The notes under the pieces were generated by a model, which ran no database searches, was not told where the DNA came from, and saw only the letters and a list, made by a program, of their open reading frames with translations. From the NCBI GenBank assembly GCA_047967505.1, contig CM106538.1: a DNA stretch of 64,000 nt; one strand, 5' to 3'. This document shows, in pieces, positions 1 through 52,906 of the stretch (position 1 is the stretch's first letter; each line of letters starts with the position of its first letter). The position numbers were made by a program, and so were the translations under genes. Origin of the DNA: Dipteris shenzhenensis. Taxonomy: Eukaryota.

Positions 1-199
1 ACAAGAGTGCATGTCCACACAGGAGCACTGGCTCTGATTTGTGAGCTGCACAGGTCTCTAGACACATGGAAGACATATTAGGGCATGTAGTTCCAATCAA
101 ATTGATTAGGATATGAATTTATTTGTTAAAAAGGCTAGTAAAACCGGTTCTTTTTTTGTTAAAAACAATGAAAATGTGAGTATTGGAAGGTAATTGGAG

Positions 200-790
200 C
201 TATTTGTCTTCGAACATTGGCAACCGTGTTGGGAATTGGTATGTGATGTAGAAGAGGTCATGATTAGACTAGTACGCTTGCGTTGTTCCAAGAAGTTGCT
301 CATCAAAGGTGCATCTGTCCAAATGTGAACAATTTGAGACGCATAAATTGTTGTGGAGGTTTTGTTCACTAATAGCAGATGATTTTCTTCCATGACAATT
401 TGTATCTGCAGGTGCTTTTGAGAAGTTTGTAGCATATTGATGTTGAAATCTCCCTGCATGAAAGTTGGATAGAGTGATGGCCTTTGGTGCAACACACGTG
501 CGATTTGTTCTAGGAAACTCTGGATGTTGCATGCTTCGATACGGTATACTGCCACTATAAACATCGCTTGCCTCGGGTTTGGTCAAAAGTGAGCCATGAT
601 TGTTTCAAGGCCAGCCATTGTAAATGTTTTGTGAAACCAAAGAAAGCCTGCATTTGTACAAAAGTGATGTACCCATTCCTACAAATGCTATAATAGTAGC
701 AAATGTTTCTTTGTTGGTATAATCCTCAGAATGCAGGTGTAAAGAGCAAGTATTTAAGGTTTGTATAATGGTATGTGTTCGGCTCCAATT
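200..790 (-). pseudogene. C-terminal endonuclease/exonuclease/phosphatase (AP-like) domain of the transposase
   Basis: TLNTCSL, IVAVYR, GDFNINM, TT..ASQI.HIWT and a terminal Y*SNH (SDH-like) motif directly downstream of helicase motif VI. Confidence 0.8.
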
Positions 791-859
791 TTTGAGACAA
801 GGGATGTCAAACTGCCAAGCTATAGTTGTAAGGAGTCTTTCCATTTCAGCAGCCACAAT

Positions 860-2200
860 TACATCCACATGGAAATGTTTGCTCTCTAAGGGTTTGAGGA
901 GGTAAAGGTTTTCTTTAGAATGTACTCTAAAGAGTGCAGTATATGTGATGCCGTGTTGTAGGCGGCATGTAGGATCAAAACACAATGTTTCTAGTGTTAA
1001 GCCCTATGCACGGTGGACGGTTCTTGCTGAAGCTGGTTGAACTGGGAATTGCGTTCATGAAATGACATAGTTGCTATTGCTCCCTATTTGTATTTCCTTT
1101 GTGATTGGCAATGTTGCAGTCCAGGATTAGTCAATATGATCTTCGTATAAGTGCCGAGTTTGCTAACATGTGCATGCTCCGACATTGGGGCTAGAGAATT
1201 GCACCCACATAAATACGTTTGAGTTGGACATTGTTACAGCCTTGAAGTGGCCATCGGCCCCATTCACAAGACTATCAGCTGTGTTGTAGTTCCCTGCACA
1301 TAGCTCGACAACGATATTTGGTTTTAGCTTATTTCTTTGTGTAAGCTGGCAGTTTTGCTCGGATCATTCGGTAAGGAAAGAGTGCCGGGCAATTGCCATG
1401 TCTATTATCCACTGCTTGGAAAGTGTAAATGTTACCGGCTATATGGCAAAACACCGTTTCATTATTTGTTTGTGCAAAATAGATGAGGTATCGTCAAGTC
1501 TAGTGGTGGCTTATGGTAACATACTGAATTGATTGTGTCAATGTCTTGTTGACTTTGTTGTTCGTCTGGAATTTCTTCAAGATGTTAGTGAACATTAAAT
1601 CATTTTGGCGCATGATAGTGTTGAGTTGGTAAACTTGATCCGTTCTTTCTAAAAAATTTGCTTTAAATGGTTTCAATGTTGGAATACCCACTTGTCACGA
1701 ATAGGGGGTAATCGGTATAAGTCTCCTATTTTTATGATGTCTAGGCCCCCGAACGGGATGTTGTGAATGTGCTTGATGGTGCATAATCACTTATCCACAA
1801 AGTTAAGTATGCATTTCCCAATGAGCGATACCTCATCCATGATAATAGTTTGAAGGTCCAAGTATTGTTTTGTGAGCCTGTGTAGCTTGTCAGCTACCAA
1901 TTTAGGCAAGTTTTTATAGTTTATTGGTATGTTCAACATAGAATGAAGAGTAGCACCGTTCATATGGCAAGCGGCCCTTCCTGTGTAAGCCATTTTTAGT
2001 ATTTTCATAGTCAATGGGTTGGAGGTAGAACCTTTATTACATAGACACAGTAGCTCCTAGGGTAAAGAGCGTGTATGAGTGTTGTCTTGCCTGTTCCAAC
2101 TCCTCCAGCCAAGAATATGTAAATTGGCTCATCTGGTCTATTTTTCTTTTTCCACATTATGTCATCAAACATGCGCCTTTGTTCTACATTCAAACGTTGT
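860..2200 (-). pseudogene. PIF1-family SF1 helicase domain of the transposase
   Basis: Walker A GGVGTGKT, AYTGRAA/GATLHS, Walker B IIMDEVS, PFGG..GD, LNTIMRQ, GLVNG, QFP...TVHRA*GLTL, YTALFRV. Confidence 0.93.
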
Positions 2201-3049
2201 ACTTGGGAGTAATGCTCTTTTGTGGAGATTAATCCTGCTGGTGGATCTAGATATTGGTAAGTGTCAGCACATTATCTTTTCTTATCGTTTCTTGTTTCTA
2301 TAGAAGGAATGTCAATTGGTTGTTCTTTGACACAATCGTAATGAGTCACGTCCACCATATCAGATGAGTCTAGCAAAATAGTGTTCTTGAATATTTCAGC
2401 CCATACATTATCATTTGCTTTCATAGCCATCTCATACACTTGTTGCTTGAAGTTTGACCAAGCCTCCACATTTTGATCATCTGCATCTATCCGAAAATTG
2501 GATTTTTTGTGGACGTCATCAATTTGATGGTTGTGTTTGATGTAAGCATCTTGCCATGTTTCATGTGGTCATTTCAAGGTTTCTTTTGATTCACAGTAAG
2601 GAATGTAGAGCATCAACTATTCTCTATAATAGTTATTTGGGACTTGATGCTGATCGAAATGTGTGAACCTAATCACCTACAATTTCTTCAACTTTTTGTA
2701 TGTTAACCTGTTGTATTCCGATACAAATTCGGCAAGTGAAATTAGCTTGAGACTTGCTGGTCATGTGGTGTAGTGATCTGCAATTGAAGCGCACATGATG
2801 TCGGTCAAGTCATCACGTAATGTTTGTAAGACTTTATTAGGTTTTAGCATAGCTGCACGCTGCTACAATGGTGTCATATTTATGGACTACACTGTATGAG
2901 AAGCGTGGTGCATCACTGTGAAAGGATTACGTAGATTGCTTGCTATGCCGAATCTGTTGCAAGTTTAAAAATGCAGCTCCCATTTTCTTGATTCATTTAA
3001 CCATGTCATCGTTGTCTTGGTTTGATTTCTTTATTATATCGTTAAATGC

Positions 3050-4470
3050 TCTAGTGATTGTGTTGTCCACCTTTGTGAGGTGCAAAGTGCAATATGCAGC
3101 CGCTACATATGGGTCTAATATGACCTAAGTGTTAGTGTTGACATCCCATAACCGTGCTAGCAACATTGCAAATGGGTTTGTCCAAGCATCTGATGGCTTC
3201 CTCTGAAGAAAGAGCATTGGCCGCTTTAAATTTGCTCGCAAACACAACATATATTCTTTCTTGGTTAGTCTTAATTTATTTAAAAATTTTGTGAAACTGT
3301 GCAATGAAGCAAAGGTCAAGTCGTTTAGCTCCCTCCCTATACATGCTTGCAAGGTTAGATTTGACATGCAAGGAGTTATCGTGGAGAGGTTCCAAGATTG
3401 TTGTTTCAACCATTGCTGGTATTGGAGAATGAAACCTACAAATCGCCTTGCCTTTTTTTTGGCATGTGCATGTGTGTCTATGGCATTGTGCTAATTGCAA
3501 TGACTCGGGGAGCAATAACAGATCACAAGATATGTATTGATCCACAAAGCGTGTTACAACATCGCTTGATTTACCATCAAAAATAGGGTCCCCTTCCACC
3601 CAAAGCAGGGCATGATCATGCTCGCTACCACGGTTTTGAAATTCGGTCACAAATTAGAAATCTGTGATCTTCCTGAAAAATTGTGTATCAGCCTTCAAAA
3701 GCTTTCTCAAGGCTTTCATTCGGTGATCATAATACCGTGTGCAAGTGACGGGGTCATCACGGACCAGCTCGTGTGTTGCAAGCTGGGTTTTATTACCGTT
3801 GTGCTCAATTGACCGCAACTCTCTTAGTTCATCCAACAACGCTGACCAATTGCTCTCTCCACTTGTAAACATCACAAAGAATGTCGATGGGCTTAGTTGG
3901 TGAACCATTGCAAACAATATTTTCTACTGGTGTTGCAAGTAGTGCGGAGATGTTTGGATGCTTTCAAGTTCTCAGTAACCAATATCTAATGTCAAGAGTA
4001 CATCTAAGTTGGGTCTAGTTTTGACATCCTTAGTAGTTATAAGCCTACCATTCAACTATGCATTTCGCATACGAATCCACACTGAACTAGCAACAAAGTG
4101 TATTAAGATCTTTACTGCTTTGAAGAAAAGGTTTTGGATGTGAGTTGCAAAGCGTCAGTCCCTGTGCAAGATCTCCCACTGGGCAACTTTTTGGTAGCTA
4201 AGCATATTGAGCATATGCTCATACCTTGGCTGACCAAAGAACAGCATTGGGTAGTTTAGCTCCTCGCAATGCTTGTCTCTATATATACCCATTGGCTTTT
4301 GGTTTTCGCTTAGAACAATCGCTGTGATGGTTGAGATTGTATCAAGAATCTTGGCTGTGTCGACATATCCATGTACTAGTGTGTCTGTGAAGGGGTCCGC
4401 CTCTTGTTCTGGAGTCATACTTTCATCTATAAAGCAAGCGTCGCTATTGTGTTGTGCATTCATCCTAAGC
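3050..4470 (-). pseudogene. Rep (HUH rolling-circle initiator) domain of the transposase
   Basis: Motif 1 QLSPSTFFVMFTS, motif 2 EFQNRGSEHDHALLW, motif 3 ILDPYVAAAYC..L.K; also QCHRHTCTC.KKGK.ICRF. Confidence 0.93.
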
Positions 4471-5634
4471 TAGAAATATGGAAGCCACAGTTATGAGATT
4501 GAGACACCCTCTTGCTTGTACAAGGGTGTTTCAACGAGCCTTTTTAATGCTTTCATTACTAGATTGGGGTGAACATTACCAGTAGTGTATGGAGTTTGGT
4601 ACTCTAGTTTTCACTTTATTGCGACTCTGATTGTCATGCTATCATCTAGCTATCTCACAGAAGCACGGTTTGAATGCTCTCTAAGTTAGTTGCAACGTTT
4701 ATGATACTCCCTTTTAGCAAATACTGGCCAAAGTGTAAAGTCATATTTGAAGGTTGCCCGTGGTGCAACAAGCCTTTTTTCAAGTTTAATAAGTAGCTGT
4801 ACTTGTTCAATTGGGATATTTAATCTCATATTCATGGGCAACGCAAAAGTAGGCACTTGGACACACTCAACTTGTCGCTTATAGCCAGCTAGAACAGATA
4901 GAACTACGGGTTGCTCTGATACGGTCCTCATATGTGGCTATAGTCTCTACTAGCAGCGCAATGATTTCTTCAGTTACTTCTTTGATCTGGTATTTGAATA
5001 GTAACCTTTCACAACAATAGCAAGGATGTGTAGGAGTGTCTAAGATGAGCGATAGAAATTTATCGGTTGGCCCGCTACGCTTTCATTTGCTCGTCCCTTT
5101 GTGTGTTTGGTCATAGAATCTGTTTTCAAGATACTGGAGATGACAAACTATTTGGGCTACTATTTTCCCTTCCACCTGCTACTATTCCAACATAATCCTT
5201 GCTAATTGGGTCCTTGCTGATGAAGGCATGGCTTCTGCAAGCAATAAGATTTCTTTGTCGGATGTATCAGGCCATTTTCTAGAATGAGTTTGTGGTTGTT
5301 GTTCATTAGTAGGTTCGAGTACAGTTTCTACTAGAACCTTAGTAAACTGGTGTTTTCTTCTAAGGTACCATATGTGAGCCATCACCTTCTCTAGAGGAGA
5401 GTTTTTTTTGTCATTAAATTTTATGTAGTTCTCGACGATCATTCTTACCATTTGATTAGGCATAGTGCTCATGATGAGTTGTATTGCCTCGTTATCTTTC
5501 TTTAACCAAAGATGCCGTATCTTTCTAGTGCCTGTGCTGTGCATGTTAGCTTAACAAATCATCTCGTTGTGTGTAGTTTTTCCACATTCACAATGCGGAT
5601 TTAAGTGTCATACTGAAGGTGCGTTAGCTAGTTG

Positions 5635-7625
5635 AACAACTGGCTCAAAGTGTGGTGCATCCATTGGACCATCATGGTAAAGAATTTGTAGTGGTTCTGT
5701 TTCTAATGCATCGTCGCATTTTATATAAACCTTTCTTCCAAATAGTGACCATACATAAATTGGCCCGCTGCAAGTACTTAGAAGCCCAATAAATAGCAAA
5801 ATAGTCCCCCCAGAGTCCACTCTCTGATGCAGGTCTACTCATGCGTGCTAGGTATTCTTCGCAACTTTGCATGCCATGGAAATCATGCAGAAAGCTACGT
5901 GTTAGAAAATTATCCAAGAAGTCTTTAGCATTTGTGTAGTCCATGGTCAGAGAATACATAAATTGGTTTACTATTGCAACTTGAATTTCTTTGGTTGGTG
6001 AGTTTGTATTTAGCAAGTATTTTATTGTGTCAAATAAGTAGTCACCGGGTGCACAGGCATAGTCTGCAGCATGCGCTAAGTTTTTCTCGTACAGTACAGC
6101 ATCTATTAGATCAGTGTCTACTCATACACCTCATACAGGAGAGCATGCAGTTTTGGTAGCGAGTCTTGTTTAGATTTTGGATGGCTTGCTTGGATTCTCT
6201 ACGATAGATGGTGTATCAATGTGCACTATAGGTTCTATGTGACCCACATGTGATGGGCGATCATCATAAAGGATATGTAAAGGCGTGGCATTGAAATTCA
6301 TGCCATGTCTTATATAAACTTGTTTTGTAGTGACCATATGTAGATTGGTTTTTGTAAGAATAATGATGCCCAAAGAATAGCAAATTGATCCCCCAAAGTC
6401 CCCCCTGTGCTGCTGCCTTGCTCATCTGCTCTAAATATTCATCATAGGTTTGGACATCGTGCAAATCATGGAGAAAATTTGTAGAGAGAGAAGTGTGTAA
6501 GCACCTCATAGCTTGCTCCTCTCCATTCTGCAAGCTTGTGAGAAACTGTTGAATTACTACCACTCGGATTCCGGCAGATGTCAATTCTATATCAACCAGA
6601 TACTTCATTCTATCAAATAAGCAATCACCAGGGGTGTATTTGTAATTTCTTTCATGACGTAGTTGTTGACATTGCAAAACAATGTCAATTGAGTGCTGAG
6701 TTTCAATATTTGGTGCAAGATCTATTGCAGTTGTTACTGCGAGAACCACGACTTCATCATCAGATTGAGTTACAACCAGTGTAGCACGCGTTGCTACTGC
6801 GAGTTTGTTCTCATCTTGCCTTATAGCAGGGACATGTTGACTAAACCAACGTTGGATATAGGAGGTTTTTCAATAATTGGCTCAAAGTGGGGGGAGTGTG
6901 CAAGACCGTCATCATATAAGATCCGTAATGGGGTTGACACACCTCTGCCACATTCCATACATATCTTTCCGGTTGTAGATGACCACAATTGTATTGGTCT
7001 TTAAAGGAATTTTAAAAGCCACACAATAGCAAATCCATCTCCAGAAAGACCACTGTATGATACTGGAACACTCATACGTGTAAGGTATTCATCGTGTGTT
7101 TCAACTTTGTGCTACTCACGTATGAAGCTCAAATCTAAATGTATTGAAGCAATCTATTGCTTGCTGATCGTTGCTGTGCAAGTGTAAAACAAATTTTTCA
7201 ATGGTTCTAGTTCGAAGTTGTTCGGAGGTCATTATGTTTTCCAACAAGTACACCTCCTTCGCCACATTCCATACATATCTTTTTGGTTTAGATGACCACA
7301 CTTGTATTGGTCTTTGAAGGAATTTTAAAAGCCACAGAATAGCAAATCCATCTCCAAAAAGACCACCGTATGGTAGTGGAACACTCATACATGTAAGGTA
7401 TTCATCGTGTGTTTCAACTTTGTGCTACTCACATATGAAGCTCAAATCTAAATATGTATTGAAGCAATCTATTGCTTGCTGATTGTTGATGTGCAAGTGT
7501 AAAACAAATTTTTCAATGGTTCTAGTTCGGAGTTGTTCGGAGGTCATTATGTTTTCCAACAAGTATGCAATCGCACCGAATAAATAGTCACTTGTTGTAT
7601 AGTCATAATGCCTAACATGGCTCAA
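5635..7625 (-). pseudogene. Three tandem OTU-like cysteine protease domains (~5635-6075, ~6225-6660, ~6870-7625) at the N-terminus of the transposase
   Basis: Each repeat has a (P/S)GD(C/Y)LF motif (YTTSDYLFG, YTPGDCLFD, APGDYLFD), a GL(W/F)GD..AI motif and ILY.D...H(F/I)EP. Confidence 0.75.
6940..7565. repeat. ~312-bp tandem duplication inside the first OTU-like domain
   Basis: ~6940-7250 and ~7251-7565 are highly similar; both encode LLENIMTSEQLRTRTIEKFVLHLH. Confidence 0.9.
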
Positions 7626-8147
7626 GTTCTATTTGTGTAAGATGTTATCAAATGTTTTGTTTTAATCCATTCTTGTTATTCTGAACACCGGGCTTATCTT
7701 TTCCTTTTGTTTTTTTATATAAAAAGAATCGAGTGGGTTTATACTAAGCCTTCTAAAAGGCTTGCATAATTGGAAAATTTTTAAAATACAATGAGAAGCA
7801 CTAAAACATTGAAAACTCTTATAACAATAGTTCCTAGACTAGTAGTTCCATACAAAGTTTAGATGGCAATCTTTTCTTTTTTGCGTCTATTCAGTAAACA
7901 GGATTCTTTTACTGGCAAGCATGAAGCTCGTTAGGTAGGCGTAAAGCCCATTCGACAGGTGTAAAGCCCTTTTGCGAGGCAATCAACGCTTTCAGAAAAT
8001 CTTTTTTTTGCTATCTTTTTTTTCCCAATAATAGAAAAACAGAACAGCCAATTGGAAAACAGGTACTTGGAAAATGGCTTTTTCTTTCCAGGAAAATGGC
8101 TTTTTTCTGGCAAATAAGTTTTGAATAATAGTTTTTTTTTCTCGTGC

Positions 8148-9400
8148 TAGGGAGCACCCTTAGTAGCAAAATTGTTCTCGGTATCTAAATTGCGCATCGG
8201 ATGTTCGTCTTCGAGATCTATTATTGGTGTGTATGAAACCAGTACATTGCCAGACATTAGCTCAAATTCTCCCACAGTTTGCAGCTTACTAATGTCAATT
8301 CACTGCAAATCTGCACAAGGATCAGCGTTTTAGTAAATGGGACAGTGATCGATAATAACAATTAGGGTTAAAAACCACATGTACTATACTATGCATCGCT
8401 CACCAAGTCAACGTTACTCTCTTGGTCTTGGTAATGTTCGAATACTTCTATGAGCCTCTTTATGGTGTCCTTATCGGTTGCTGGCGCTACTATTGAGTAG
8501 GCAGCAAACTGTAGCTGCTTCCTAGTGGTATATCTTCTAGTTATTGCGTTCTTAATCACATATATAGCGGGACAGCCTTGATTTAATGCACACATCTCAT
8601 CCTTGATGTGCTCATGTTCATTGTAGAATGCCAGCTATAAAAAGAAGGCAAAGAATGCACGACAATAATAATGTTAGTAATCGCACTGATTGGAATTGGA
8701 AAATAGGCATGACAACAACAAGGCTACTTACAATTGAGTAGTCATCTGGACCCATTCCATCAGCCACCTTTAAGAAAGAATTTGAGAATCTTTCGCTCGT
8801 ATGTATTCTAGTGTCTTCCAAAACCACAACTGCAATGTCGCCAGTTGGATGTGTTTCCAAACTCTGTAACAACTGTGCTATGGTACTATTATTATAGAAA
8901 TTCAATTGGATTATAGGGATTGGCAATACTGTGGTGATAATTGTACTCACTGTCACTTTTAATGTCAACTCAGAATCCCCTCTCTCAAATTCTAGCCTTT
9001 TCTTCGAAATCCAAAAGTTCTTGATTCTCACGTAGTTACCAGGCTTGATTATTTCCTCGTGTTTTTCAATCAACTCTTTGTCAAGCTGTAGTGTGATCAT
9101 CGTGAGACCACCTATATCAGTCAAGTCCGCTCTTATGTTTGGGTAGGATGAGCTTCTCTTCCTCTTATATGTGCCGTAACGGTTCAAAATCAACCCCTCA
9201 AAAAGAATCTTTTGCATGTTTGGAATCATATCCTTTATCATTACCACTTGCAACTTAGATGTGCCTTTTCTCTATGCCTTATTACTACTTGTGATAGCAT
9301 GATTGTTTTCTATCCTTACGTTGGATGCCTTGCTGGTTGAAGTTTGCAAAGGTTCCTTCTCAGCACTAGTTCTTGGTCTTTTATTTGATGTAGTCGACAT
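8148..9400 (-). pseudogene. RPA70/DUF223-like OB-fold ssDNA-binding protein gene, intron-containing, one premature stop
   Basis: ATG at 9400 (MSTTSNKRPR) is in frame with ORF 8618-9253 apart from a TAG at ~9275. LTDIGG.TMITLQL..ELIEKHEEIIKPGNYVRIKNF resembles an RPA1 OB fold. GTAAGT donor ~8731, TTTTATAG acceptor ~8636, GTGAGC donor ~8403. Confidence 0.65.
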
Positions 9401-9552
9401 TTTTCTTTAGTGCTTCACCTACAATATAATAAATTCGAGGGTGGGCATTTTATTTAAAAAAATAGCCTCAATGAATGCACCTTTATCCTAGAGATGCGAT
9501 TTAAAAAAACAGGGTTTTAAAGGCTCTGTTATGACTTGGGACATTTTGTTAG

Positions 9553-9748
9553 GTAGTGCTTTAACAACATTGTGAAGCAATGTAGTGCTTTAACGACACA
9601 GCGAAGCACTGTAGTGCTTTAATGACATAATGTAGTGCTTTAACAACATAGTGAAGCATAGTGCTTTAACGACATAGCGAAGCACTATAGTGCTTTAATA
9701 ACACAGTGAAGTACTGTAGTGCTTTAACGACATATCGAAGCATTGTAG
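9553..9748. repeat. Minisatellite, ~7 copies of a ~29-bp unit containing the palindrome AAGCACT(GT/AT)AGTGCTT
   Basis: Unit TGTAGTGCTTTAACGACATAGCGAAGCAC read directly; perfect 16-bp palindrome AAGCACTATAGTGCTT at ~9680-9695. Confidence 0.92.
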
Positions 9749-9904
9749 GTCTGACAATGTATAAAAAGAAGAGTAAAATTAAAGCATCATTAACTGCAAA
9801 CATTCGTTGGGAGCATGTATAAGCAAAATATATAGTTTGAAGGTACAGTACTCCAAACAATCAAATGATGTAACAGTAGCAACAACTAAATTAGAATGTC
9901 TTTA

Positions 9905-11037
9905 ATCATAAATTAAGCTGAGCCTATTACAGAGCTCCATGCCTTGCTCATCGCCATTGTCCCTACAAATAGTAGCACCCAGTGCATTATTGCCACCTAT
10001 TTGCTTCAGCTGTGCCTTTCCCAAGGAAAGCATATCGACCAATGGACTCATGTACAGGTAACGTTGTCAATGCATGGTCCCATTGACTAATTTTGAAACA
10101 AGTTCAATCGACTTTGGGTAGATGCCACATTTCTAGAGGCCATTAAGAGGCCGTGTAAGTAGCAGTCTGTTTTATTAATTGCAACCTCCTCATGTAAACC
10201 ACACAATCAACGAAAAACACCCCCAACCAATGTACAAGAATAGCCAAACAACGAATGGCATGACATTGGGTCTCCTAACCACGAAATGCCGCTATGTATT
10301 TCTACAGTTGTAGTAGACCCATCATATGTCAATCCAAGTTTACTTGTTTCCGTTTTGGATAAAGGATTGCATGGTGTGTAATAACCTAGTGTTTTATTGT
10401 AGGCACATCCTTAAATCTCATAAGTAAAAAGGCATAATATAGTAAATCAGGCCTACATAGGAAACCCAACCGTGTCAGCTTCTCCAACGTAGCTATATAA
10501 TGTTTACTTTTTACACTGTCCAGATCCAAAGACCGAACAAAGGCTTCTATGTCATCATTGGGCGTGTCTACCTTCATTAGACCATCGCATTGTAATGTTC
10601 AAGAACTTGTGTGAGTTTTTGTAATCTCTCAACCCTTCAATTTGGTTTTTGAGTTGATGTCGGAGCTCATACAACTGTTCGATTGTTGTGGCTATTAAAT
10701 AACACACAGATTTGACAATTAGGATACTGACAACTGAACCGCTCCTCCTCCTAGTATAAAGATTTTTTATAGTTGGACTCTTGATGAAGCCGTCATGCAA
10801 TAAGAAATCTTTGAAAGATGCCCCTTTAGGGGCCTTGACTAAGCACGTGACTATTTTATGCAGAGTGGATAGAGCAATCAATAGTTGAATAAATGCCAAC
10901 TTGTTTTGCATCCTTGTGTTATCAAAAAAGTCCCTGGCAATCCGTTTCCTTGAAGTTGAGTAGAATGCTAATTCTTTTAGACTAGCCATGGCACTTGCAG
11001 CTACAAACAAAAAGCGTATGCTCCCTTTAATGGGCAT
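9905..11037 (-). pseudogene. Decayed coding region of unknown function, co-oriented with the Helentron genes
   Basis: Overlapping frameshifted ORFs 10555-11037 and 10386-10577, with further coding-like segments ending ..ELCNRLSLIYD* at ~9905. Confidence 0.4.
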
Positions 11038-11127
11038 AGGAATATAACTTAGCTAGTGCGATAACTATGGATAGGATCACCGTCCTTTCAACTTGAAAGA
11101 AGATAAAATTCATATATCTATTGTGAC

Positions 11128-11172
11128 GTGTGTGTGTGAGTGTGTGAGTGCGTGTGTGTGTGTGTGTGTGCG
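11128..11172. repeat. (GT)n microsatellite
   Basis: Direct reading. Confidence 0.95.
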
Positions 11173-11523
11173 TGGACAAAACCCCAAAACAGATCTCGCT
11201 ATAAGCTTACAAAGGCAAGAAAGCAACGTTATCATATTACACAATGAGCATCCAAAGAGCTGCAACATCATATATGAGAGACGCTTAGTCATGCCTTTCT
11301 CTCATTCTCTCCTTTTTTTTAAAATGAGCCCAATAGAATAGACCAAGGTAACAATGGTAAACAATCACATGTAAAAGTTTAAGCAGGGACACAATGCAAT
11401 GTGCTTCTTTTACTGATCGAATACAGCTAATAGGAATAATCTCTTGTGATGACCCTCTTATTTGTTGAGTGTGTGCAATAGAATGGAACAAGGTAGCTAT
11501 GGTAAAACATCATACGTAAAAAA

Positions 11524-12445
11524 TTAAAGCTTGGCTACATTGCAATCAACTTCTGCAATGGGCCACATACAATGACTAGGATCGATGCCTCGAGAGGAAA
11601 ACAAGTGACAAGCAACATCCAGAGACATTCGCCTATTAGGATCCTCCTTAAGCATGCCTATTGAGACGTGCTTAATTAGCCTAATATTGGTTGTCCAGTG
11701 ACTATGGCGCGATGAAACATTAACTTGTGGCACATTGTCCTGTACATAGTAACTACATTTACAAAGCCCTGACAGTATTCAACCTAGTGAAAATATATCC
11801 GTTACAGCTGTCCAAGGTCATTTGGTTTTATCGTCAAAAACTTCAAGCACCAACCACTGTTTACCAGCAAAGGTTTTTCTATCCACTTGTATTCTTTTTT
11901 TGTATTCATAATTTGTTTCTTTCAACTGCCTAGGCAACAAGTTTTCATTAAATATTTTCCCACATGTCACATGGCCCCAATCGCAAATGCCAACCCGCAC
12001 CCGCCCTTCTGTTGTATAATCTAGTAAAACATTCCTACTATGTAAATCATTATGAATCCAACTCTGCTCATGCAAAGCTTGCAACCCTAGGCAAAGAGCA
12101 TAGGCAAGCTCTGGTATGAAGGTCACAGTTTGTTGGCCAGAGTGTAGTTGGTTTATAGCACAGCTGAGCACTTACACACCATGTAAAATAACTCATATAA
12201 TGTGTCTCCATTAAAATAAGGCATAAATACCCAATGTGGAGGACCCATCGTCAAAGCAACTGCTTGTACCAACACACTGTGTTTTAGTTGCAAAGATCCT
12301 TCTTTCAGAGACTTTGTGAACTTCATTTCTGCAGTGCCCTTAAAAGATTTGGCTACAAAATGCTTGCTTGGATCTAGACTTATGACTCCTTGTATCCTAG
12401 CCAAAACAATATCACCCTCACTCCCGGAACCAATCCTTTTATCTC
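11524..12445 (-). pseudogene. Protein kinase domain (Ser/Thr or TKL-like), frameshifted, with stops
   Basis: IGSGSEGDIV (G-loop), FVAKSF, VFMPYFNGDTL, IHNDLHSRNVLL, ICDWG, WLVLEV (APE-like), TDIFSLG, DPNRR. Confidence 0.88.
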
Positions 12446-14376
12446 GGTAAGCACCTCATACGTTCTTGTGGCAACCAAACGGCATAGCTGCTTGTTGAGA
12501 ACATTGTATTGATAGAAGTTGCGCTCAACTTGGCACCTACACCTATCGACACGTCCGGCTCTATACGTGCTTCTATAGGGTCATTTTGCTGCCTAGCCAA
12601 TGCAATTACCTTAGTTTGAGTACTTCGTGCCTTTCACTTTACCCATGTCTCCTTCCAAAGTTCCTGCTTTTCGATTGAAAGTGTAACGCTACTAGAAAAT
12701 TCGGCATGGTGCTTAATGTTTCCTATAATTGTCATGATTCATCTGCCTATCTCTAATGACCATACATCATGTGCTATATTTTCTAGTTGAGCATGGATGG
12801 GCGACACATCATCTCAATTGCTAATTTTTTCCACGATGACCTTCTTGAAAGCATCTAATAATTTATCATCGAGACCGATCTTCTGAATCATGCTTGCATC
12901 CATTTCTGAAATGGCTAGGATCACCTTTCGCTATATATAGCTATATAATTTTTTCCATTCTCTTGTTTCACTCCCATTCCCCATACCTACATCATGAACC
13001 AAATACCTTAAAGATATGTTGAAGAACACTTCAAAACAAAGAGATGGTTAATTATAGAACTTACAAGAATAATATCCTTAAATGATAGCATGGATCACAA
13101 AGAAAGATAATGGGAGAAGGAGAAGGATACAAAATCAAAGATAGGAGATGTAGCATCACAAAAGCGTAGAAAACACCGTTTAAGCTGAAAGGGCATTGTA
13201 CTTTTATTTAAAAAAGACATATGAAAGCCATACATTAGTGTTGTAATCCTATTACTTTTGCATATTTCCCTTTGTGGGTAAAACCTAAGTTTTTCCTTAG
13301 GCAAACGTGGCACAAGCACATTTTGAGCATTAGCATAATTGGGCTCCACCAACCCACGCACTGATCACTAACATCTAGAGTCTTGACAACACCTAAATGG
13401 CATATAGCCACCATTATATCTATATGCTTCTTTGTCATTGGCATGTCCCAGGTCATGTTCCCACACTCAAACTATATCCTCTCATCACGATCATCATCCA
13501 GTAGACGAGGATAGTCCTCAACCAGATACCTTGCAATATTATGGGCCACCCCCTCAAAAGATTGTAAGGCTTGGTAGATGCCCATTTCCCCCGGTGAGCA
13601 TCGAGACAAGTCACATGTGGAGCCTTTTAAATTGTCCCAAGTTAGTGCATTATCAGAAGAGTGTTTCAATTTCTTTGCCTTGGGCTCATCTTCCGGTAAG
13701 GCTTTATTTAGGGGACTCTCTAGATGCATGGCCCTGTCCATATGGAAACCTAGGACTGGCACACACTTAGTGCCATTGAAAAACCTCAATTTCTCCTTTA
13801 GTACAATATTGCAAAAAAGGTTTTGACAATGCACAAAGTAAGGAGCGGACCAGCCCAAATACAAATAACACACATCAACCCATGCAACGATCCCCAATTT
13901 GCAGATAGTAGCTATTGCATAACTATCTAGGTAGATGTAACAACCTTCATTCGGGCAACTTTCTAGGTAGATGTAACTACTGCATGGTATCTAAAAGTTG
14001 CTCGAATGAAGGTTTCTGCTGGAGACCATGTGAGATTTTTTGCATTAACTGCATCTTGGTATTCTGAACTTCCTTCCGAACTTGTGGAGGGATCCTCACC
14101 GGACACTGTGTTCCCAGGAACCCATTCTTCATCTTTCGAACTCGAAACGGTTTCATCCAATTCTAGCTGGATTACGGATGGTTCTCCTACCTCTCCCTGT
14201 GTTCCAACCGTCTTGCCAGATCCTTCCTCATTTGCATCAAGACGACCCCTTACTCGGGCCCTTGTAAAGTAGAGACAACGGAGATGACTCCGTTTCCTGC
14301 ATGTCTGACATCCGCTACCACTCTCTCCATGAACATTCTGTAAGATTGCTCGACTCTTTCTCCCTTCGGTCTTCAT
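12446..14376 (-). pseudogene. Probable N-terminal exons of the kinase gene (unknown domains)
   Basis: Series of co-oriented coding-like ORF pieces (13963-14376, 13472-13897, 13235-13456, ~12450-13005) leading into the kinase G-loop. Confidence 0.4.
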
Positions 14377-15609
14377 GTTAAATTATCTACGCCCGCCTCA
14401 ATACTCCCTGATTCCTCGACTAAGAATTCTCGCCTCTTCCACTGCAAATCACGGATTAATTCCCGCACATTGTTGATAATCTCCTAAAGTGCTTCACAAT
14501 TCCCAATGTTCACAGTTGTTTGTTGGAGTTTCCTTAACAACTAGAGAACATGGTAGAGAATATTGATTTCTCCCTGTAAGCGTTGAAGGTTCTCGTTCCA
14601 CCGACTAGACTCTGCGTGCGTGTGCTTTTTCTACCACATGCATTCCGCTTGAAGGAGCCATATGCTCTCTCTTCTCATGCTTGCAATTCAACAATGGCTA
14701 ATTGCTTTGCAGCATCAAATTGCTTGTAGGCGCAGATTGTGTTGACTTAATCTCTTTGATCACTAACTGTTTCAGGATTCGATTTAGTCGTTTTGATTGT
14801 CCATCCCCTTAGGGGTAGAACACCTGCGGCTTCGACATGTTATCTACTTTGTCTTTCAACTCCTTTGCCGCATTCGGTCGAAATGCCCAATTTATTTGTT
14901 GGATTGCTAGTGTAACAGGTAGAGATTAGATCCCAAAATCTACCTATTAGTAAACATACGATATCTTCATGAATGCATTCAAAGCTTCTGAAAGAGAATA
15001 CATTAACTCAAGATTGAGTGTAATAGAGATGATCAATTGACGTGAACAACTACATATTTCTTATATTGCAAATGGTTCTATAACAACTGCATATAAAGTA
15101 GGCATAGAACTAGGCAAAACAGAGTCCGATCAACAACACCATATCCGCATTCGGAATACTGTTTGACAAATTCATGAGTTGAACGACTAACTAACAACAT
15201 ATGGTAGTTGCTTGCTAACTTGCAGATGCGCCTCATCAACGGTTGCACAACTAACTCCCATTAAGGTTTTTCCATACATCCTATATCATTGTTAAAGATA
15301 AATAGTTCTTAAATATGTTTAGGCTAAACTTGCCCACAGTAGATACCGTAAGTAGGGCAAGTCTTCGATGATATAAAGCACTATCACAATAGCCACACTC
15401 CAGCATTGTACATCCATGGATCTCTGAATGAGACTTTGTGGCATTTTTTTGATTTACCCTACGGAGCAGAGTAAACACAAATCAAAGTCTGAATCTCACA
15501 CTGCACTGTATACTATCCATCATCCTAGTAAATAAACAACGAATCCCATGAGCAATTCTAATAAACAACCAGTCATAAGTCATTGACAACTTCACAAAAA
15601 AGGAGGAGG

Positions 15610-17990
15610 GACTAACATGTACTCTTTAATTAACCATTTGAAAGAAAAGGACTACTGGGAAGAGAATATATCGAGGAAAGCTTTACAGGAATACTCCAAA
15701 GCAGATGGAAGATGCATGCATCTTCATACGTGTTATTTAAGGTAACATCAATGGTTTCTTTCGGGAATATCCCAAAGCAGATGGAACTCTTTAATTAACC
15801 ATTTGAAAAGGAAAGAATAGCTAGAAAGAGAACATATTGACTACAAGACTGGAACTAGTATGCATTCATCGATGCCTCCCGTCCCCTTTTGTTTTGCAAA
15901 AAGATCCATTTTTTGGCCAATCTTTGACATAGAGCACTTTTAAATAATCAATTGAATTCCTAACAGTTCTAAAAGTACGTTTAACCCTACATGTGTCCTA
16001 ACGCAGGAATTCCATGTGCCATTTGAGCAAACCCTTTTGGGAATACCCCAAAGCAGATGGAACCAACATGTACTCTTTAATAAAGTGTACAGAAGGAAAG
16101 AACTATCGAGAAGAGAACATATTGATTAATACCTGTAAATCCCATGTGCCACTTGAGCAAACCTTTGTAGGAATACCCCAAAGCAAATGGAAGGTATATG
16201 CATATTCTTACATGTTGTTAAAGGACACATTAGCATGTAAACAAAGCATCGAAAAACCATTCAAAGAAAACCAAGCACATCATTACTTACTATGAGTGCC
16301 ATGTGCCACAAATTCTACCAGTACTTAAAAAGTATATTTAACCGCCGTGCATATTCCATTATACATGAATCCCATGTGCCATTTGAGCAAACCCTTCTGG
16401 CGATACCCCAAGGCAAATGGAACTAACATGCATTCTTTAATGGACAATTTAAAAGGCGAGAACTACTACAAACATAATAGACACATTCATTGACCAACAA
16501 CTACAAATCCCATGTGCCATTTGAGAAAACCCTGTAGGGATACCCCAAAGTAGATGGAAGATGTAGCAGGCTTGTTACAAGTTATTCAAGGAGGCCTCAG
16601 TACAAAAACGTAGTTTTAGAGATATACCATAACACATGAACCCTATGTGCCATTTGAGCAAACCCTTCCAGGAATACCGCAAAGCAGATGGAAGTAACCC
16701 ATATTCTTTAGGTATATTTAACCGCTACACATATTCCATTATACATGAATCCCATGTGCCATTTGAGCAAACCCTTCCGGGGATACCCCAAGGCAGATGG
16801 AACTAACATGCATTCTTTAATGGATGATTTAAAAGACGGGAACTGCTATGAACATAATAGACACATATATTGACCAACACCTACAAATTCCATGTGCCAT
16901 TTGAGCAAACCCCTGCAGGGATACCCCAAAGCAGATGGAAGATCTAGCAGGCTTGTTACAAGTTATTCAAGGAGACCTCAGCACAAAAACGTAGTTTTAG
17001 ACATATATCATAACACATGAAGCCCATGTGCCATTTGAGCAAACCCTTCCGACAATACCCCAAAGCAGATGGAAGTAACCCATATTCTTTAATGACCCAT
17101 CTAAAAGAAAGGAATCACAAGGAAGAGAACATGTACATTCATTGGCCAGCACCTGTGAACCCCATGTGCCATTTGAGCAAACCCTTACAGGGATACCCCA
17201 AAGCAGATGGTGGACGCAGGCACCTTGGCATGTGTTATGTAAAGAGATTTCAGCAAAGAAAGATAGAAAACAAAAAAATACAAGCACACAAGCATTCGAG
17301 GTCATACCTGAAGCCTGCTCAAATTACTAACGCATGAATTCCATGTGCCATTTGAGAAAACCCTTTCGGGAATACCCCAAAGCAGATGGAACTGAGATGT
17401 ACTCTTTAATGAACCATACGGAAGAAAAGAACTACCAGGAAGAGAACATATTGACCAATACATGCAAATCCCATGTGCCATTTGAGCAAACCTTTGCAGG
17501 AATACCCCAAAGCAGATGGAAGGTACATGTATATTCTTACATGTTATTAAAGGACACATTAGCACGTAAACAAAGCTTCAAAAAACCATTGGAAGAAAAC
17601 CAAGCACATCATCACTTTTGAGCGACATGTGCCACAAATTCTACCAGTACCTAAAAAGTATATATTTAACCACCGCACATAGTCCCTTATACATGAATCC
17701 CATGTGCCATTTGAGTAAACCCTTTCGAGGATACCCCAAGGCAAATGGAACTAACATGCATTCTTTAATGGATGATTTAAAAGGTGTGAACTACTACGAA
17801 GAAAACAGACACATTCATTGGCCAACACCTACAAATCCCATGTGCGATTTGAGCAAACCCTTGTAGGGATACCCCAAAGGAGATGGTAGATGCAAGCACC
17901 TTGGCATGTGTTATCTAAAGAGGTTTGAGTAAAGAAAGATAGAGAATAAAAAAATATAGGCACACGCGCATTCGAGGTTAGCATTTATGG
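15610..17990 (-). repeat. Array of 13 full and 2 partial 53-nt conserved hairpin cores separated by 56-177 nt spacers (higher-order repeat)
   Basis: Core T(C/T)CCATGTGCCATTTGAGCAAACCCTTNCRGGRATACCCCAAAGCAGATGGAA starting at about 16010, 16140, 16370, 16508, 16641, 16750, 16888, 17022, 17160, 17339, 17469, 17698, 17836; partial copies at ~15675 and ~15756. Confidence 0.95.
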
Positions 17991-19519: not shown

Positions 19520-20139
19520 AAACTCCATCCCCAGGACTGCTAGGAGAATGAGAACAATCGCTCTCAAAGGCTGCATTGTAACTATCCGCCTCTTTTTCCC
19601 CTTCGGTCTCCGGAGAAGCGCACCTGGAGAAGACTGCTTTGGGGAGTCGCTGTGGCAGCAAAGGTTGGACAGTCGCGGCTGCTGCTGCGGGGAAGAGGAG
19701 GTTTTGAGAGGCTGGGAGGGCGTGAGGCTATCGTTCAATGTGGCATCGTCCCAACCAGGGATACGCGTGAGGATTTCTTCCTAGGAGGGAGAAACGAAGG
19801 ATTGGGATAAGATGAAGTGGAAGGGGTTGGAGGGGAGCATCATGGGGAGGAGGAGGGAGAAGAAGCGAAGAGCTCTCAAGAGTCCAGCGATGGCGAGGCA
19901 GAAGAAGCAAAAAGGTGAAAATCCGCCATAGCTCAGAGTGAAGTGCCCAAGACAGAAACGGGTTGAAACTTAGCACATGAAGGAACCATTCGGCAACATG
20001 TTGGAAGCGAGAGGGCATTTTCGGGTTCTTGCGCTGTTAGAGCCAAGACCTCGTCCACCAACGATTTACCAGCGTCAATGTCGACTGCTGATACAGAGAG
20101 GGCTCTGAATGCAGTAGCTCCTATGAAACCGAACGAACT

Positions 20140-20480
20140 AAAAGGAACATTACTGAATTGGAGCTGGGATCTCTGTTCCGATTGTTGGGATTGCAGCCAC
20201 ACACACAACAACTGGTGGCATTGACGCTTAAAGCAGATACCAACAAAAATGGCTTGATAGAGTTTGAAGAATTCGTAAATGTGCTTGCAGCACCCGAGGA
20301 GGCCAAGAATCCTCCATATAGCGAAGAGCCATTGCAAGCTCTGTTTCGCAAATTTGGCAATGGTTTCATTATGGCAGTAGAGTTGGCTCACTCTATGGCG
20401 CGTCTTGGCCATGCTCTTACTGCCAGGGAGGGTTAATCCAATACAATCAGAAGGTGATGCTCATGAAATCAGCTTCGAAA
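20140..20480 (+). pseudogene. Calmodulin-like (CML17/CML18-type) EF-hand protein fragment, intronless
   Basis: ELGSLFRLLGLQP...KADTNKNGLIEFEEFV...PYSEEPLQALFRKF-GNGFI.A.ELAHSMARLGHALT; third EF loop lacks DxD; frameshifts at both ends. Confidence 0.85.
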
Positions 20481-22145: not shown

Positions 22146-22310
22146 GTACCGTGAGAAATTTCTCTCATTACTCGTCAATCTCTGTTTGGAGAGTGATTGG
22201 CATCGGCGGGAAATGATCTGTATTGGGCATTGGATAATGGGCGATAATGTGTTTTGCCAAAGTAACTCGCGCTATTGATGCCTCGGCCCGCGAATGTTTT
22301 TTGGGAGCAG

Positions 22311-22448
22311 GTTGAGCAGGTGAGACTGGGGATTCCACGGGAAAAGCCCCTCGCCGTACAGCAGTGGGAGGGTCTTATAGCTGTCAATTACGCCGCTCGT
22401 GCTGCAGGCGTGGTCCGCCACGACCGAGTTTCTGAAGCTCTTCGCAAG
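22311..22448 (+). CDS. POLH: DNA polymerase eta-like, exon 2
   Basis: AG/GT bounded, phase 0; VEQVRLGIPREKPLAVQQWEGLIAVNYAARAAGVVRHDRVSEALRK. Confidence 0.93.
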
Positions 22449-23054
22449 GTACGAAGGGAGGCCTGCATAACAGTCGTGTTCACTTGTATGCAGCTACAAT
22501 TGAAGTCTTTCTATAGTCTGGACCCGCGAGCCTACACTGTAAGCTGCATAAACAAAATAATATTCAAGGACAGGTTGAGTCAAAACATGAAAAGAAGAAG
22601 AACTGTCTCAGCACACGATCAGCACTCCGAGAGGGAGTGTTAAACTTATAATTTGACTTCGATTGTATTTCGACTTGTGATATGTACTGAGTGTTAAACT
22701 TCTCTGGTCTCAATTTAAATTTCTTTAATGCAGGCTGATCAATGATGGTTATGTCTCCTATGAGTAGATATACATTTCTAGATAGTTTTGAAGTCACCCC
22801 CCCTCCGCCCTCCCCCCCCCCCCCCCCAACCTCTCCTTCGAAAAATTATAAATAAAATCATAACTAATCCCTCTAAAGTTTAAGAGTCTTGTACCTTGCA
22901 TGCCTCTTACGGCACACCTCTTACGACTACGATGTTTTACCCTTTTCTTTACGCCTTAAAAGAATGGTGTCTTCTTAGTTTTGGTGTTTGTAGAGTGTCA
23001 TTTCATTTATTTACTAAAGATTGTAGATTTAATTGTTATTATTTCCCATTTCAG

Positions 23055-52100: not shown

Positions 52101-52906
52101 ACCAGTTGCGGAGAGTGTTCCCAGACTTTATCATTGAGGACGCTGATGTCTGAAGAGGGAAGGAATGTTACGCTCTAGCCGAGGTAGCATGACCTCGGAA
52201 GAATTAGTTGACATTTCCCTTAAAGGATCTATGTTTGTAATATATCTGTTTGCGCTTCATGTAAATGATCGTCCTAGGTGAGGGCTGATAGCACCAGACT
52301 AGGTGGATCTAAGGCTAAGGGCCTAATGCAAGAAATGTGCCCAGGGGAAAAGGAAATTAAAGTATCCCAAGAGAGGGGTGAAAAGATGCATTAGGAAGGC
52401 CCTATGATGATGACATGTGGCATCTAGATCCATCTAGGGAGATGGGGCTTGTTGGAGTTAGTGAGAGAAGGAGAATGTACCTTCACGAAGGATTTGGCTG
52501 AATTCGATTTCTCTGTCAGCTCTCACGCTCTAACAGGAATTGGTAGGAGGATACTCGTGGTGCTACTCCCGTGATATGCAGTAGTAGAATAGGAAAGTTT
52601 GTGACATTAATGCCAAGGGAACTCCGAGGTCTTGCATTCTTTTCCATAGGCCCCCTCTCGGGACTGTCTCAAATGCCTTTTTAAAATCTACAAAACAGCA
52701 CAAAAGAGTTTTTCCTTTTAGTCCGCTTTCATCCATGAGTACACTTAGTGTGACTAGATGATCTGCAGTCCTATGCTCTTTATGGAGCCTGCTTGTCCAA
52801 TGGCCCTCTTCTTGGTCTCTTCCGTCCAAGTGCTAATTTTTGCTTCAAGCACTGTGCTAAAAAGTTTAGCTAGTGTGGAGCTGAGCATTATTGTTATGTA
52901 GTTTTT
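46200..52906 (-). mobile_element. 5'-truncated LINE (RT domain) split by the 47539-52606 LTR element; LINE sequence at 46200-47538 and 52607-52906
   Basis: CFVDFKKAF..V.R..LW (right part) continues to GVKQGCPLSPTLF, LLYADD, FKYLG (left part). Confidence 0.92.
47539..52606 (+). mobile_element. Ty3/gypsy chromovirus, internally deleted copy (element A)
   Basis: LTRs 47539-48000 and 52166-52606 (TG..CA); TSD TTAAT both sides; PBS TGGTATCAGAGC 48003-48014; PPT GAAGAGGGAAGGAA; protease FDSASTHN, partial RT, integrase, chromodomain-like LVAWHG..EATWE. Confidence 0.97.

What the first reader, a model, noticed from the sequence alone, without database searches (positions are those of the whole stretch)
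15670..17990. Repeat-spacer array whose 53-nt core folds into a GNRA-capped long hairpin with covariation on the element strand
Seen: the minus-strand core UUCCAU-C-UGC-UUUGGGGUA-UU-CCC-GAAA-GGG-UU-UGCUCAAA-UG-GCA-C-AUGGGA pairs end to end using several G-U pairs, which become A-C mismatches on the + strand. The apical loop is GAAA (17339, 17698), GGAA (16641, 16750, 17022), GUAA (17160) or GCAA (17469), i.e. GNRA with all four bases at N. Most other copies are ANAA, one G-to-A step away. The closing pair varies among C-G, U-G and U-A. Cores are much more uniform than spacers. Inference: selection on a single-stranded structure, such as a polycistronic structured RNA (processing sites releasing spacer RNAs, small-RNA precursors, protein decoys) or ssDNA hairpins, lying upstream of the Helentron cargo genes. 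I know no description of this motif.
Basis: partly seen in the sequence, partly recalled or inferred. Interest (0 to 1): 0.85.

Follow-up and report, generated by a model that had tools for sequence, protein, structure and literature searches.

The report
Hairpin-box tandem repeats beside a Helentron
A plant-like genome carries a 2.4-kb array of 13 copies of a conserved 53-base imperfect palindrome next to a decayed rolling-circle transposon; this looks like the satellite-type repeats such transposons often carry, and the evidence for a selected RNA fold is suggestive but weak.

Summary
There are 13 full 53-nt cores and 2 half-cores at 15.54-17.98 kb, and none elsewhere in the window. As RNA, every core folds better on the minus strand, because four G-U pairs become A-C mismatches on the plus strand. 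The loop is GNRA in 7 of 13 cores.

The array is a dimeric higher-order tandem repeat. Alpha and beta cores alternate with two spacer families that cannot be aligned to each other.

It lies 11 kb upstream of a decayed Rep-helicase-endonuclease (Helentron-type) gene, on the same strand, in a genome resembling a non-seed land plant. Helentrons are known to carry satellite-like arrays.

Covariation is not significant. Only 2 of 18 pairs show double changes, and 13 changes keep pairing while 11 break it. The loop and closing-pair variation sits on a CpG step. The strand skew also holds in the spacers.

One signal does stand. Between recent duplicates, the two ~20-nt arms diverge three times less than the spacers (13/280 vs 87/599), while the loop is hypervariable.

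No RNA data or sister loci could be obtained, so an RNA function stays open. I file it as a new member of a known kind, of moderate interest.

The parts
15535..17980 (-). Whole tandem array: a dimeric higher-order repeat (core-alpha, spacer A, core-beta, spacer B), with degenerate truncated units at the low-coordinate end
16010..16062 (-). core 1 (alpha), loop AAAA
16140..16192 (-). core 2 (beta), loop ACAA, closing pair U-A
16370..16422 (-). core 3 (alpha), loop AGAA
16508..16559 (-). core 4 (beta), 52 nt, 1-nt deletion in the loop
16641..16693 (-). core 5 (alpha), loop GGAA, two broken pairs
16750..16802 (-). core 6 (alpha), loop GGAA, best fold (-24 kcal/mol)
16888..16940 (-). core 7 (beta), loop GCAG
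17022..17074 (-). core 8 (alpha), loop GGAA, weakened apical stem
17160..17212 (-). core 9 (beta), loop GUAA, basal pair changed U-A to C-G
17339..17391 (-). core 10 (alpha), loop GAAA
17469..17521 (-). core 11 (beta), loop GCAA, closing pair U-A
17698..17750 (-). core 12 (alpha), loop GAAA
17836..17888 (-). core 13 (beta), loop ACAA, three broken pairs
15659..15713 (-). degenerate core that keeps only one arm
   Evidence: E 0.086
15758..15788 (-). half-core (one arm only)
713..4406 (-). Decayed Rep + Pif1-type helicase gene of a Helitron-like element, in six pieces and several frames
106..582 (-). Endonuclease-like ORF downstream of the helicase, matching the Helentron architecture. The Pfam hit is below the curated cut-off.
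   Evidence: Exo_endo_phos_2, E 9.4e-5, 22.7 bits vs 27.4
8618..9271 (-). ORF with a weak match to the RPA-type OB fold (DUF223); tentative
   Evidence: E 0.022, below cut-off

Best explanation
This is a satellite-like tandem-repeat module that belongs to, or was captured by, a Helentron-type (HLE2) rolling-circle transposon in a genome resembling a non-seed land plant.

The unit is a dimer of about 270 bp. The same 53-bp imperfect palindrome occurs twice in it, followed by two unrelated spacers. Blocks of two to three cores were later duplicated.

The array was probably built and reshuffled by ordinary tandem-repeat dynamics in the transposon lineage: unequal exchange, slippage, or aberrant rolling-circle copying.

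The two ~20-nt arms of the palindrome are held constant while the loop, the base and the spacers drift. This points to a cis-acting box that matters to the element. The most likely form is a hairpin in single-stranded nucleic acid of the element's sense strand, with a transcript fitting better than ssDNA on thermodynamic grounds.

Shown: the array, its architecture, the hairpin potential, the conservation of the arms, and the adjacency to Rep-Hel-endonuclease genes.
Inferred: that the array lies inside the element, that selection acted in the transposon lineage, and any RNA or ssDNA role.
For: - Architecture and duplication blocks.
- Cores alpha-beta are 86.6% identical, while spacers A and B are near shuffled level (0.455 vs 0.420).
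- Between duplicated blocks, the arms differ at 13/280 sites, the spacers at 87/599 (p 6.6e-6), the apical 9 columns at 14/62 and the basal columns at 5/28. A hypervariable loop between two constant arms is hard to explain by gene conversion alone.
- Minus-strand RNA fold: z -2.6 to -3.6 in the 3 of 13 copies tested; 222/234 cells paired against 75.2% on the plus strand.
- Rep ORF 3276-3653 hits 4 proteins, all carrying PF14214. One of them (P0002) has Rep + Pif1 + endonuclease domains.
- P0002 residues 14-1237 align colinearly to 4406..713 on the minus strand. An endonuclease-like ORF follows at 106-582.
- Literature, passages read: Helentrons and HINEs often hold central satDNA-like arrays (PMC7492417, PMC4067079, PMC12628747). 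HLE2 elements occur in 13 of 74 sampled land-plant genomes (PMC11417382).
Against: - The element's ends were not found. The 3' end lies beyond the window start, no second copy is in the window, and no terminal inverted repeats frame the array. Membership of the array in the element therefore rests on adjacency and shared orientation across 11 kb that also holds other ORFs.
- Described Helentron arrays have 140-180-bp monomers without a reported shared hairpin box.
- As DNA the hairpin is weak and shows no minus-strand advantage: -6.9 to -9.0 vs -8.4 to -10.9 kcal/mol.
- Nine transversions break pairs, and four cores fold poorly at -12.6 to -15.8 kcal/mol.
- Variants shared by non-partner cores (alignment columns 10, 25, 26, 38, 55) show that some exchange or recurrent mutation occurs among cores.
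Confidence: 0.55

Rival explanations
1. The array is a polycistronic precursor of small RNAs. A minus-strand transcript folds into 13 hairpins, which a Dicer-like enzyme cuts into ~21-nt duplexes from the two conserved arms. This would resemble homologous plant MIRNA clusters such as rice miR395. The small RNAs would serve either the transposon or the host.
For: - The arms are about 20 nt, sequence-conserved even at unpaired positions, and both start with U. The loop and flanks are variable.
- G-U pairs occur on one strand only.
- Among transitions at paired sites, 13 of 15 keep the pair.
- The host resembles a land plant.
Against: - No Rfam family matches, microRNA families included, even at E up to 10.
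- The hairpin is only 53 nt with a 4-nt loop. Extending it into the flanks gains -12.0 kcal/mol, against -8.5 +/- 3.6 for shuffled flanks, so a lower stem is not established.
- In the predicted fold, 6 of the first 21 nt are unpaired.
- Outside the array, the window holds only one marginal complementary site (score 5, at 32336) for 27 candidate small RNAs.
- The strand skew is shared by the spacers.
Confidence: 0.17
2. The core is a double-stranded DNA protein-binding box: two half-sites around a variable centre. Repeating it 13 times makes a binding array, iteron-like for the element's Rep protein or enhancer-like for a host factor. The hairpin potential is then a by-product of dyad symmetry.
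For: - Conservation is of sequence rather than pairing. Ten of 17 unpaired core columns never vary, while the centre is hypervariable.
Against: - The two arms are poor copies of each other as DNA. In the plus strand, 4 of 18 positions pair in at most 3 of 13 copies.
- This is not what a symmetric dimer site needs, and it leaves the one-strand G-U pattern unexplained.
- No binding protein is identified.
Confidence: 0.13
3. The array is a neutral satellite with no function for the box. The cores look conserved because they are the only segment shared by all units, and so are homogenised by exchange. The loop looks variable because it holds a CpG hot spot. The G-U bias follows from a strand-asymmetric mutation or composition skew.
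For: - AT skew (+0.19 vs +0.24) and GC skew (-0.11 vs -0.09) are alike in cores and spacers.
- The closing-pair/loop step is a CpG with states CG 4, CA 2, TG 4, TA 3.
- CpG is depleted in the spacers: 20 seen against 39.7 expected.
- Five variants are shared by cores that are not duplication partners.
- Covariation is not significant.
Against: - Exchange tracts that homogenise both arms should also homogenise the 9 nt between them. Yet that stretch differs at 14/62 sites between partners and at 37.8% over all pairs, against 5.2% for the arms.
- A 53-nt box folding with z near -3 is unlikely by chance.
Confidence: 0.25

Closest known systems
[quoted passage not shown]
   Same: A short satellite-like head-to-tail array is associated with a Rep-helicase-endonuclease rolling-circle transposon. 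Some elements combine repeats from two clusters. Conserved segments within monomers are reported.
   Different: - The described monomers are mostly 140-180 bp. Here the half-units are 109-230 bp (most often 130-138), within a ~270-bp dimer.
- No shared 53-bp hairpin box with unrelated spacers is described in the passages I read.
- The element's ends (subTIRs, 3' palindrome, T-T target) could not be located here.
- The host is plant-like, not a mollusc or insect.
Homologous polycistronic MIRNA clusters of plants, for example rice Osa-MIR395m-s,x (PMC2812943)
   Same: Tandem copies of one hairpin lie on one strand at short spacing. The arms are conserved, while the loops and linkers vary.
   Different: - There is no small-RNA evidence and no Rfam match.
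- The hairpin is short (53 nt) with a tetraloop and no proven lower stem.
- The array lies beside transposon genes.
Terminal stem-loops of Helitron-like elements (the 3' hairpin of HLE1, and the stem-loop after the right TIR of HLE2; PMC11417382, PMC4067079)
   Same: These are hairpin-forming sequences in the sense strand of a rolling-circle transposon, used in single-stranded form.
   Different: - The terminal stem-loops are single, 5-20 nt, and sit at the 3' end.
- Here there are 13 copies of a 53-nt imperfect hairpin on the 5' side of the Rep gene, and they are weak as DNA.

Membership tests
Helentron / HLE2 element with central tandem repeats | Encodes Rep (Helitron_like_N) fused to a Pif1-type helicase | tested here: met
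   4 of 4 hits carry PF14214. P0002 residues 14-1237 align to 4406..713 on the minus strand, in 6 pieces at 27-44% identity. The gene is decayed or interrupted.
Helentron / HLE2 element with central tandem repeats | C-terminal apurinic-type endonuclease domain | tested here: inconclusive
   ORF 106-582 matches Exo_endo_phos_2 at E 9.4e-5, but 22.7 bits is below the 27.4 cut-off. The relative P0002 carries PF03372.
Helentron / HLE2 element with central tandem repeats | The array lies between the terminal modules (11-18-nt subterminal inverted repeats, 3' stem-loop, T-T target) | tested here: inconclusive
   No convincing inverted repeats frame the array or the element. The 3' end is beyond the window start. 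There is no second copy to compare.
Helentron / HLE2 element with central tandem repeats | Head-to-tail satellite-like repeats | tested here: met
   13 cores at spacings of 109-230 nt, forming a dimeric higher-order repeat with duplicated blocks.
Helentron / HLE2 element with central tandem repeats | The same array recurs in other copies of the element across the genome | not testable with these tools
   No genome is held. The metagenome scan gave one chance match and the viral scan none.
Plant MIRNA hairpin cluster | Discrete 20-22-nt duplex reads with 2-nt overhangs from one strand | not testable with these tools
   No sequencing run could be listed.
Plant MIRNA hairpin cluster | A duplex with few mismatches and a lower stem for Dicer-like processing (criteria recalled, not from a call) | tested here: inconclusive
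   In the MFE fold, 6 of the first 21 nt are unpaired. The flank stem gains -12.0 kcal/mol against -8.5 +/- 3.6 for shuffled flanks.
Any Rfam RNA family | Covariance-model match at the gathering score | tested here: not met
   0 matches over the window. The best matches in the region are snoRNA or lncRNA models at E 2.5-8.1, far below their gathering scores.
Structured RNA under selection for pairing | Significant compensatory covariation | tested here: not met
   2 of 18 pairs show double changes; covariation term -0.13 kcal/mol; 19 of 500 shuffles reach the count of pairs with a double change and 10 of 500 the covariation score; 13 changes keep pairs and 11 break them.

The most novel reading that the evidence does not exclude
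A Helentron-type transposon of a non-seed land plant carries its own polycistronic cluster of 13 microRNA-like hairpins. These would be transcribed with the element's sense strand and diced into ~21-nt duplexes from the two conserved arms. The transposon would then make small RNAs of its own, for self-control or for acting on host transcripts.
Probability: 0.15. Interest if true: 0.65.

Novelty: new member of a known kind. Interest (0 to 1): 0.35.

Why it matters
Helentron-borne tandem repeats are thought to seed satellite DNA. Almost nothing is known about why particular monomers are carried.

Here a repeat unit has two ~20-nt arms that stay constant while everything around them drifts. That suggests a cis-acting hairpin box, which could be tested directly once the whole genome and small-RNA data are at hand. 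If the box turns out to be a small-RNA precursor or a Rep-binding hairpin, it would give a function to a class of transposon-internal repeats usually treated as passengers.

As it stands, the locus is an ordinary kind of feature with one unexplained conservation pattern.

Tried and rejected
- **Protein-coding repeat.** Both strands have 91-108-aa open frames through the array, but the unit lengths are mostly not multiples of three. By my own count, core variation shows no third-position excess. Six ORFs gave no Pfam family above noise. Rejected.
- **tRNA, snoRNA or other known RNA.** ARAGORN found 0 genes and Rfam found nothing.
- **Longer hairpin reaching into the spacers.** Several copies fold to ~95 nt. 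However, the mean gain from native flanks (-12.0) is close to that of shuffled flanks (-8.5 +/- 3.6) and of flanks from the other type (-9.3). Not established.
- **ssDNA hairpin as the reason for the strand bias.** DNA energies are weak and slightly favour the plus strand.
- **Sister loci.** No genome is held. A metagenome pattern scan gave one GC-rich contig with one arm only, a chance match. The viral scan gave 0. Earlier scan findings held nothing relevant.
- **Expression.** No sequencing run and no RNA holder was listed. This says nothing either way.
- **Solved structures.** Searches with three ORFs gave only noise.
- **Whole-frame Pfam scan.** I used single ORFs and tblastn instead.
- **Element ends.** Searches for inverted repeats were inconclusive.
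- **Target-site search in the window.** One marginal site, taken as chance.
- **Literature.** One paper search was badly designed and returned nothing useful. No paper in the library holds the 23-nt core motif. Supplementary files, where repeat consensus sequences are usually given, were not consulted.
Full report
**What is there**

The window is eukaryotic. No genome is held for it. It carries Ty3/gypsy polyprotein ORFs and host-type exons.

Between about 15535 and 17980 lies a tandem array. Two motifs taken from the core match 13 and 15 times, always in this stretch and on the + strand, where shuffles expect 0.00 and 0.04. The 13 full cores are 53 nt (one is 52 nt) and start at 16010, 16140, 16370, 16508, 16641, 16750, 16888, 17022, 17160, 17339, 17469, 17698 and 17836. 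At the low-coordinate end are degenerate units that keep only one arm, at 15691-15710 and 15767-15786. A covariance model of the 13 cores, run without filters over the whole window, finds the 13 (72.9-87.2 bits), one weak copy at 15659-15713 (E 0.086), and nothing else better than E 1.

**Architecture**

This is not a simple repeat-spacer series. Cores alternate between an alpha type followed by spacer A (77-85 nt; one truncated to 56 nt) and a beta type followed by spacer B (81-177 nt). Blocks of two or three cores have been duplicated:
- c1-c2 resembles c10-c11 (89% over 291 nt).
- c3-c5 resembles c6-c8 (91-92%).
- c8-c9 resembles c12-c13 (81%).

Alpha and beta cores are 86.6% identical on average. 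Spacers A and B are barely more alike than shuffled sequence (0.455 vs 0.420 matches per length). The unit is therefore a ~270-bp dimer that contains the same box twice.

**The hairpin**

As RNA, the minus strand folds better than the plus strand in 13 of 13 copies: -12.6 to -25.4 against -8.9 to -17.4 kcal/mol. I tested 3 of the 13 copies against 200 dinucleotide shuffles. The z-scores are -2.59, -3.56 and -3.37 on the minus strand and -1.70, -2.96 and -1.96 on the plus strand.

Four pairs are G-U in the consensus. On the minus strand 222 of 234 cells form standard pairs. On the plus strand the figure is 75.2% of 234.

As DNA the fold is weak and the asymmetry disappears. The minus strand gives -7.1, -9.0 and -6.9 kcal/mol, and the plus strand -8.4, -10.9 and -8.5.

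Some copies can extend the stem into the spacers, to about 95 nt. But the mean gain from native flanks (-12.0 kcal/mol) is close to that of shuffled flanks (-8.5, sd 3.6) and of flanks from the other core type (-9.3). I do not count the extension as shown.

**Loop and closing pair**

Four cores are ANAA, one has a deletion and one reads GCAG. The closing pair is C-G in 6, U-G in 5 and U-A in 2.

The last stem base and the first loop base form a CpG step on the minus strand. Its states are CG in 4 cores, CA in 2, TG in 4 and TA in 3. The duplication partners c1/c10, c3/c6 and c5/c8 differ exactly by CG versus CA or TG. CpG is depleted in the spacers, with 20 seen against 39.7 expected. Much of the 'GNRA one step from ANAA' pattern and the 'C-G versus U-G' pattern is thus what CpG decay produces. 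The second loop base splits by subfamily: A or G in alpha cores, and C (once U) in beta cores.

**Covariation**

Only 2 of 18 pairs have a change on both sides. One is the closing pair in c2 and c11, which form one duplicated lineage. The other is the basal pair in c9. Together they account for 3 of 234 cells. The covariation term of RNAalifold is -0.13 of -19.78 kcal/mol. In the shuffle control, 19 of 500 shuffles reach the number of such pairs and 10 of 500 reach the covariation score. The tool warns that related sequences can beat such shuffles without any structure.

After collapsing variants shared by duplication partners, 13 changes at paired columns keep a standard pair and 11 break one (2 transitions, 9 transversions). 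Among transitions, 13 of 15 keep the pair, against 64% expected for this G-U-rich stem (binomial p 0.052).

The unpaired columns of the internal loops never vary: 10 of 17 unpaired core columns have no change. Of the 18 changes in unpaired columns, 13 fall in three apical columns. The conservation is of sequence, not just of pairing.

**Strand bias**

The four G-U pairs against no A-C pair are one inherited state of one ancestral sequence. The plus strand of the cores has AT skew +0.19 and GC skew -0.11. The spacers have +0.24 and -0.09. The minus strand is therefore T/G-rich throughout the array, and a general skew could by itself place wobble pairs on that strand.

**The signal that does stand**

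Between duplicated blocks, cores differ at 31 of 370 sites and spacers at 87 of 599 (p 0.0045). Splitting the core by region, with c8 used in two of the seven pairs:

| Region | Differences between partners |
|---|---|
| Two arms (alignment columns 6-23 and 33-54) | 13 of 280 (4.6%) |
| Nine apical columns | 14 of 62 (22.6%) |
| Four basal columns | 5 of 28 |
| Spacers | 87 of 599 (14.5%) |

Arms against spacers gives p 6.6e-6. Over all 78 core pairs the arms differ by 5.2% and the apical part by 37.8%. Homogenisation by exchange would be expected to carry the 9 nt between the arms along, so constraint on the arms is the simpler reading. However, five variants shared by non-partner cores (columns 10, 25, 26, 38 and 55) show that some exchange or recurrent change also happens.

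**Surroundings**

All long ORFs from 106 to 14382 are on the minus strand.
- ORF 3276-3653 hits four proteins that all carry Helitron_like_N. One of them, P0002 (1422 aa), combines Rep, Pif1 helicase and an endonuclease domain. Another is from a scallop.
- P0002 residues 14-1237 align in order to 4406..713 on the minus strand, in six pieces at 27-44% identity. The gene is therefore decayed or interrupted.
- ORF 106-582 gives a sub-threshold endonuclease match.
- ORF 8618-9271 gives a weak RPA-type match.
- Kinase-like ORFs lie at 11818-12455.

The array therefore sits about 11 kb upstream of a Helentron-type gene set, on the same strand. I could not find the element's ends, and there is no second copy in the window. 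Whether the array lies inside the element is an inference.

On the other side, host-type exons follow: an EF-hand exon at 20092-20436 and a DNA polymerase eta exon at 22266-22643. The best named relatives of the polymerase exon are a lycophyte, a moss, a fern and liverworts, at 62-85% identity. HLE2/Helentron elements were reported in 13 of 74 sampled land-plant genomes, a Sphagnum among them (PMC11417382, passages read).

**Comparison with what is known**

Passages of PMC7492417, PMC4067079 and PMC12628747 state three things. Helentrons and their non-autonomous HINE/DINE-1 forms often carry a short satellite-like array between their end modules. Such arrays can seed satellites. [quoted passage not shown] On that basis the locus is a new member of a known kind.

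What I did not find described is a dimeric unit with one shared 53-bp hairpin box and unrelated spacers. I read passages only, and no supplements. The motif matches no Rfam family, and no paper in the library holds its 23-nt core.

For the RNA reading, the nearest analogue is the homologous MIRNA cluster of plants, such as rice miR395, described as independent stem-loops made by successive duplication of an ancestral hairpin (PMC2812943, passages read). The features that define a MIRNA could not be tested, because no sequencing run could be listed.

**Verdict**

The claim of covariation is not. The claim of selection on a single-stranded structure is partly supported, by arm conservation and by a strand-specific RNA fold. 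Both have rival explanations in composition skew, CpG decay and repeat homogenisation.

My best explanation (0.55) is a Helentron-associated satellite-like array whose conserved box is a cis-acting, hairpin-forming element of the sense strand. The rivals are a small-RNA precursor cluster (0.17), a duplex protein-binding array (0.13) and a neutral satellite (0.25). These overlap in part with the descriptive half of the best explanation. Interest is moderate to low until genome-wide copies and RNA data are examined.

Noticed in passing
window 9525-9763 (also 14471-14500, 7776-7805, 9406-9435): A second small tandem array of 29-nt units lies inside the same gene set. Each unit holds a 7-nt inverted repeat (AGTGCTT...AAGCACT). 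Related single copies in inverted orientation lie at three other places. As RNA, the plus strand folds with z -2.73 and the minus strand with z -0.80.
   Followed up: partly
window 5672-6121, 6264-6869, 7116-7424 (minus strand); 6976-7140 and 7289-7453: Three neighbouring ORFs look paralogous, sharing a '...FLHD.H..Q...EYL..MS....GGLWG' stretch by eye. None has a Pfam family. A 165-nt segment is duplicated at 95% identity. They sit where Helentrons are reported to carry OTU-type protease genes, but that identity was not confirmed here.
   Followed up: partly
window 11818-12455 (minus strand): Protein-kinase-like ORFs lie between the Rep-helicase gene and the array (Pkinase E 8.1e-7, below the curated cut-off). 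They may be captured host gene fragments.
   Followed up: no
window 55490-62135 and 47502-52543: Two related Ty3/gypsy chromovirus copies are present. The one at 55.5-62.1 kb has 300-nt terminal stretches that are 100% identical (55490-55789 and 61836-62135) and long gag, RT and integrase ORFs, so it looks like a very recent insertion.
   Followed up: partly
window 20092-20436 (+) and 22266-22643 (+): Host-type exons lie just beyond the array: an EF-hand protein and DNA polymerase eta. The best named relatives of the polymerase exon are a lycophyte, a moss, a fern and liverworts.
   Followed up: partly
window 32336-32356 (+): This is the only site outside the array that is complementary to a candidate arm-derived 21-mer, at a lenient plant target score of 5. 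It is probably chance.
   Followed up: no
L001 1196-1217: The only metagenome contig with the 22-nt core motif is GC-rich and has one arm only, with no array. I take it as a chance match.
   Followed up: yes
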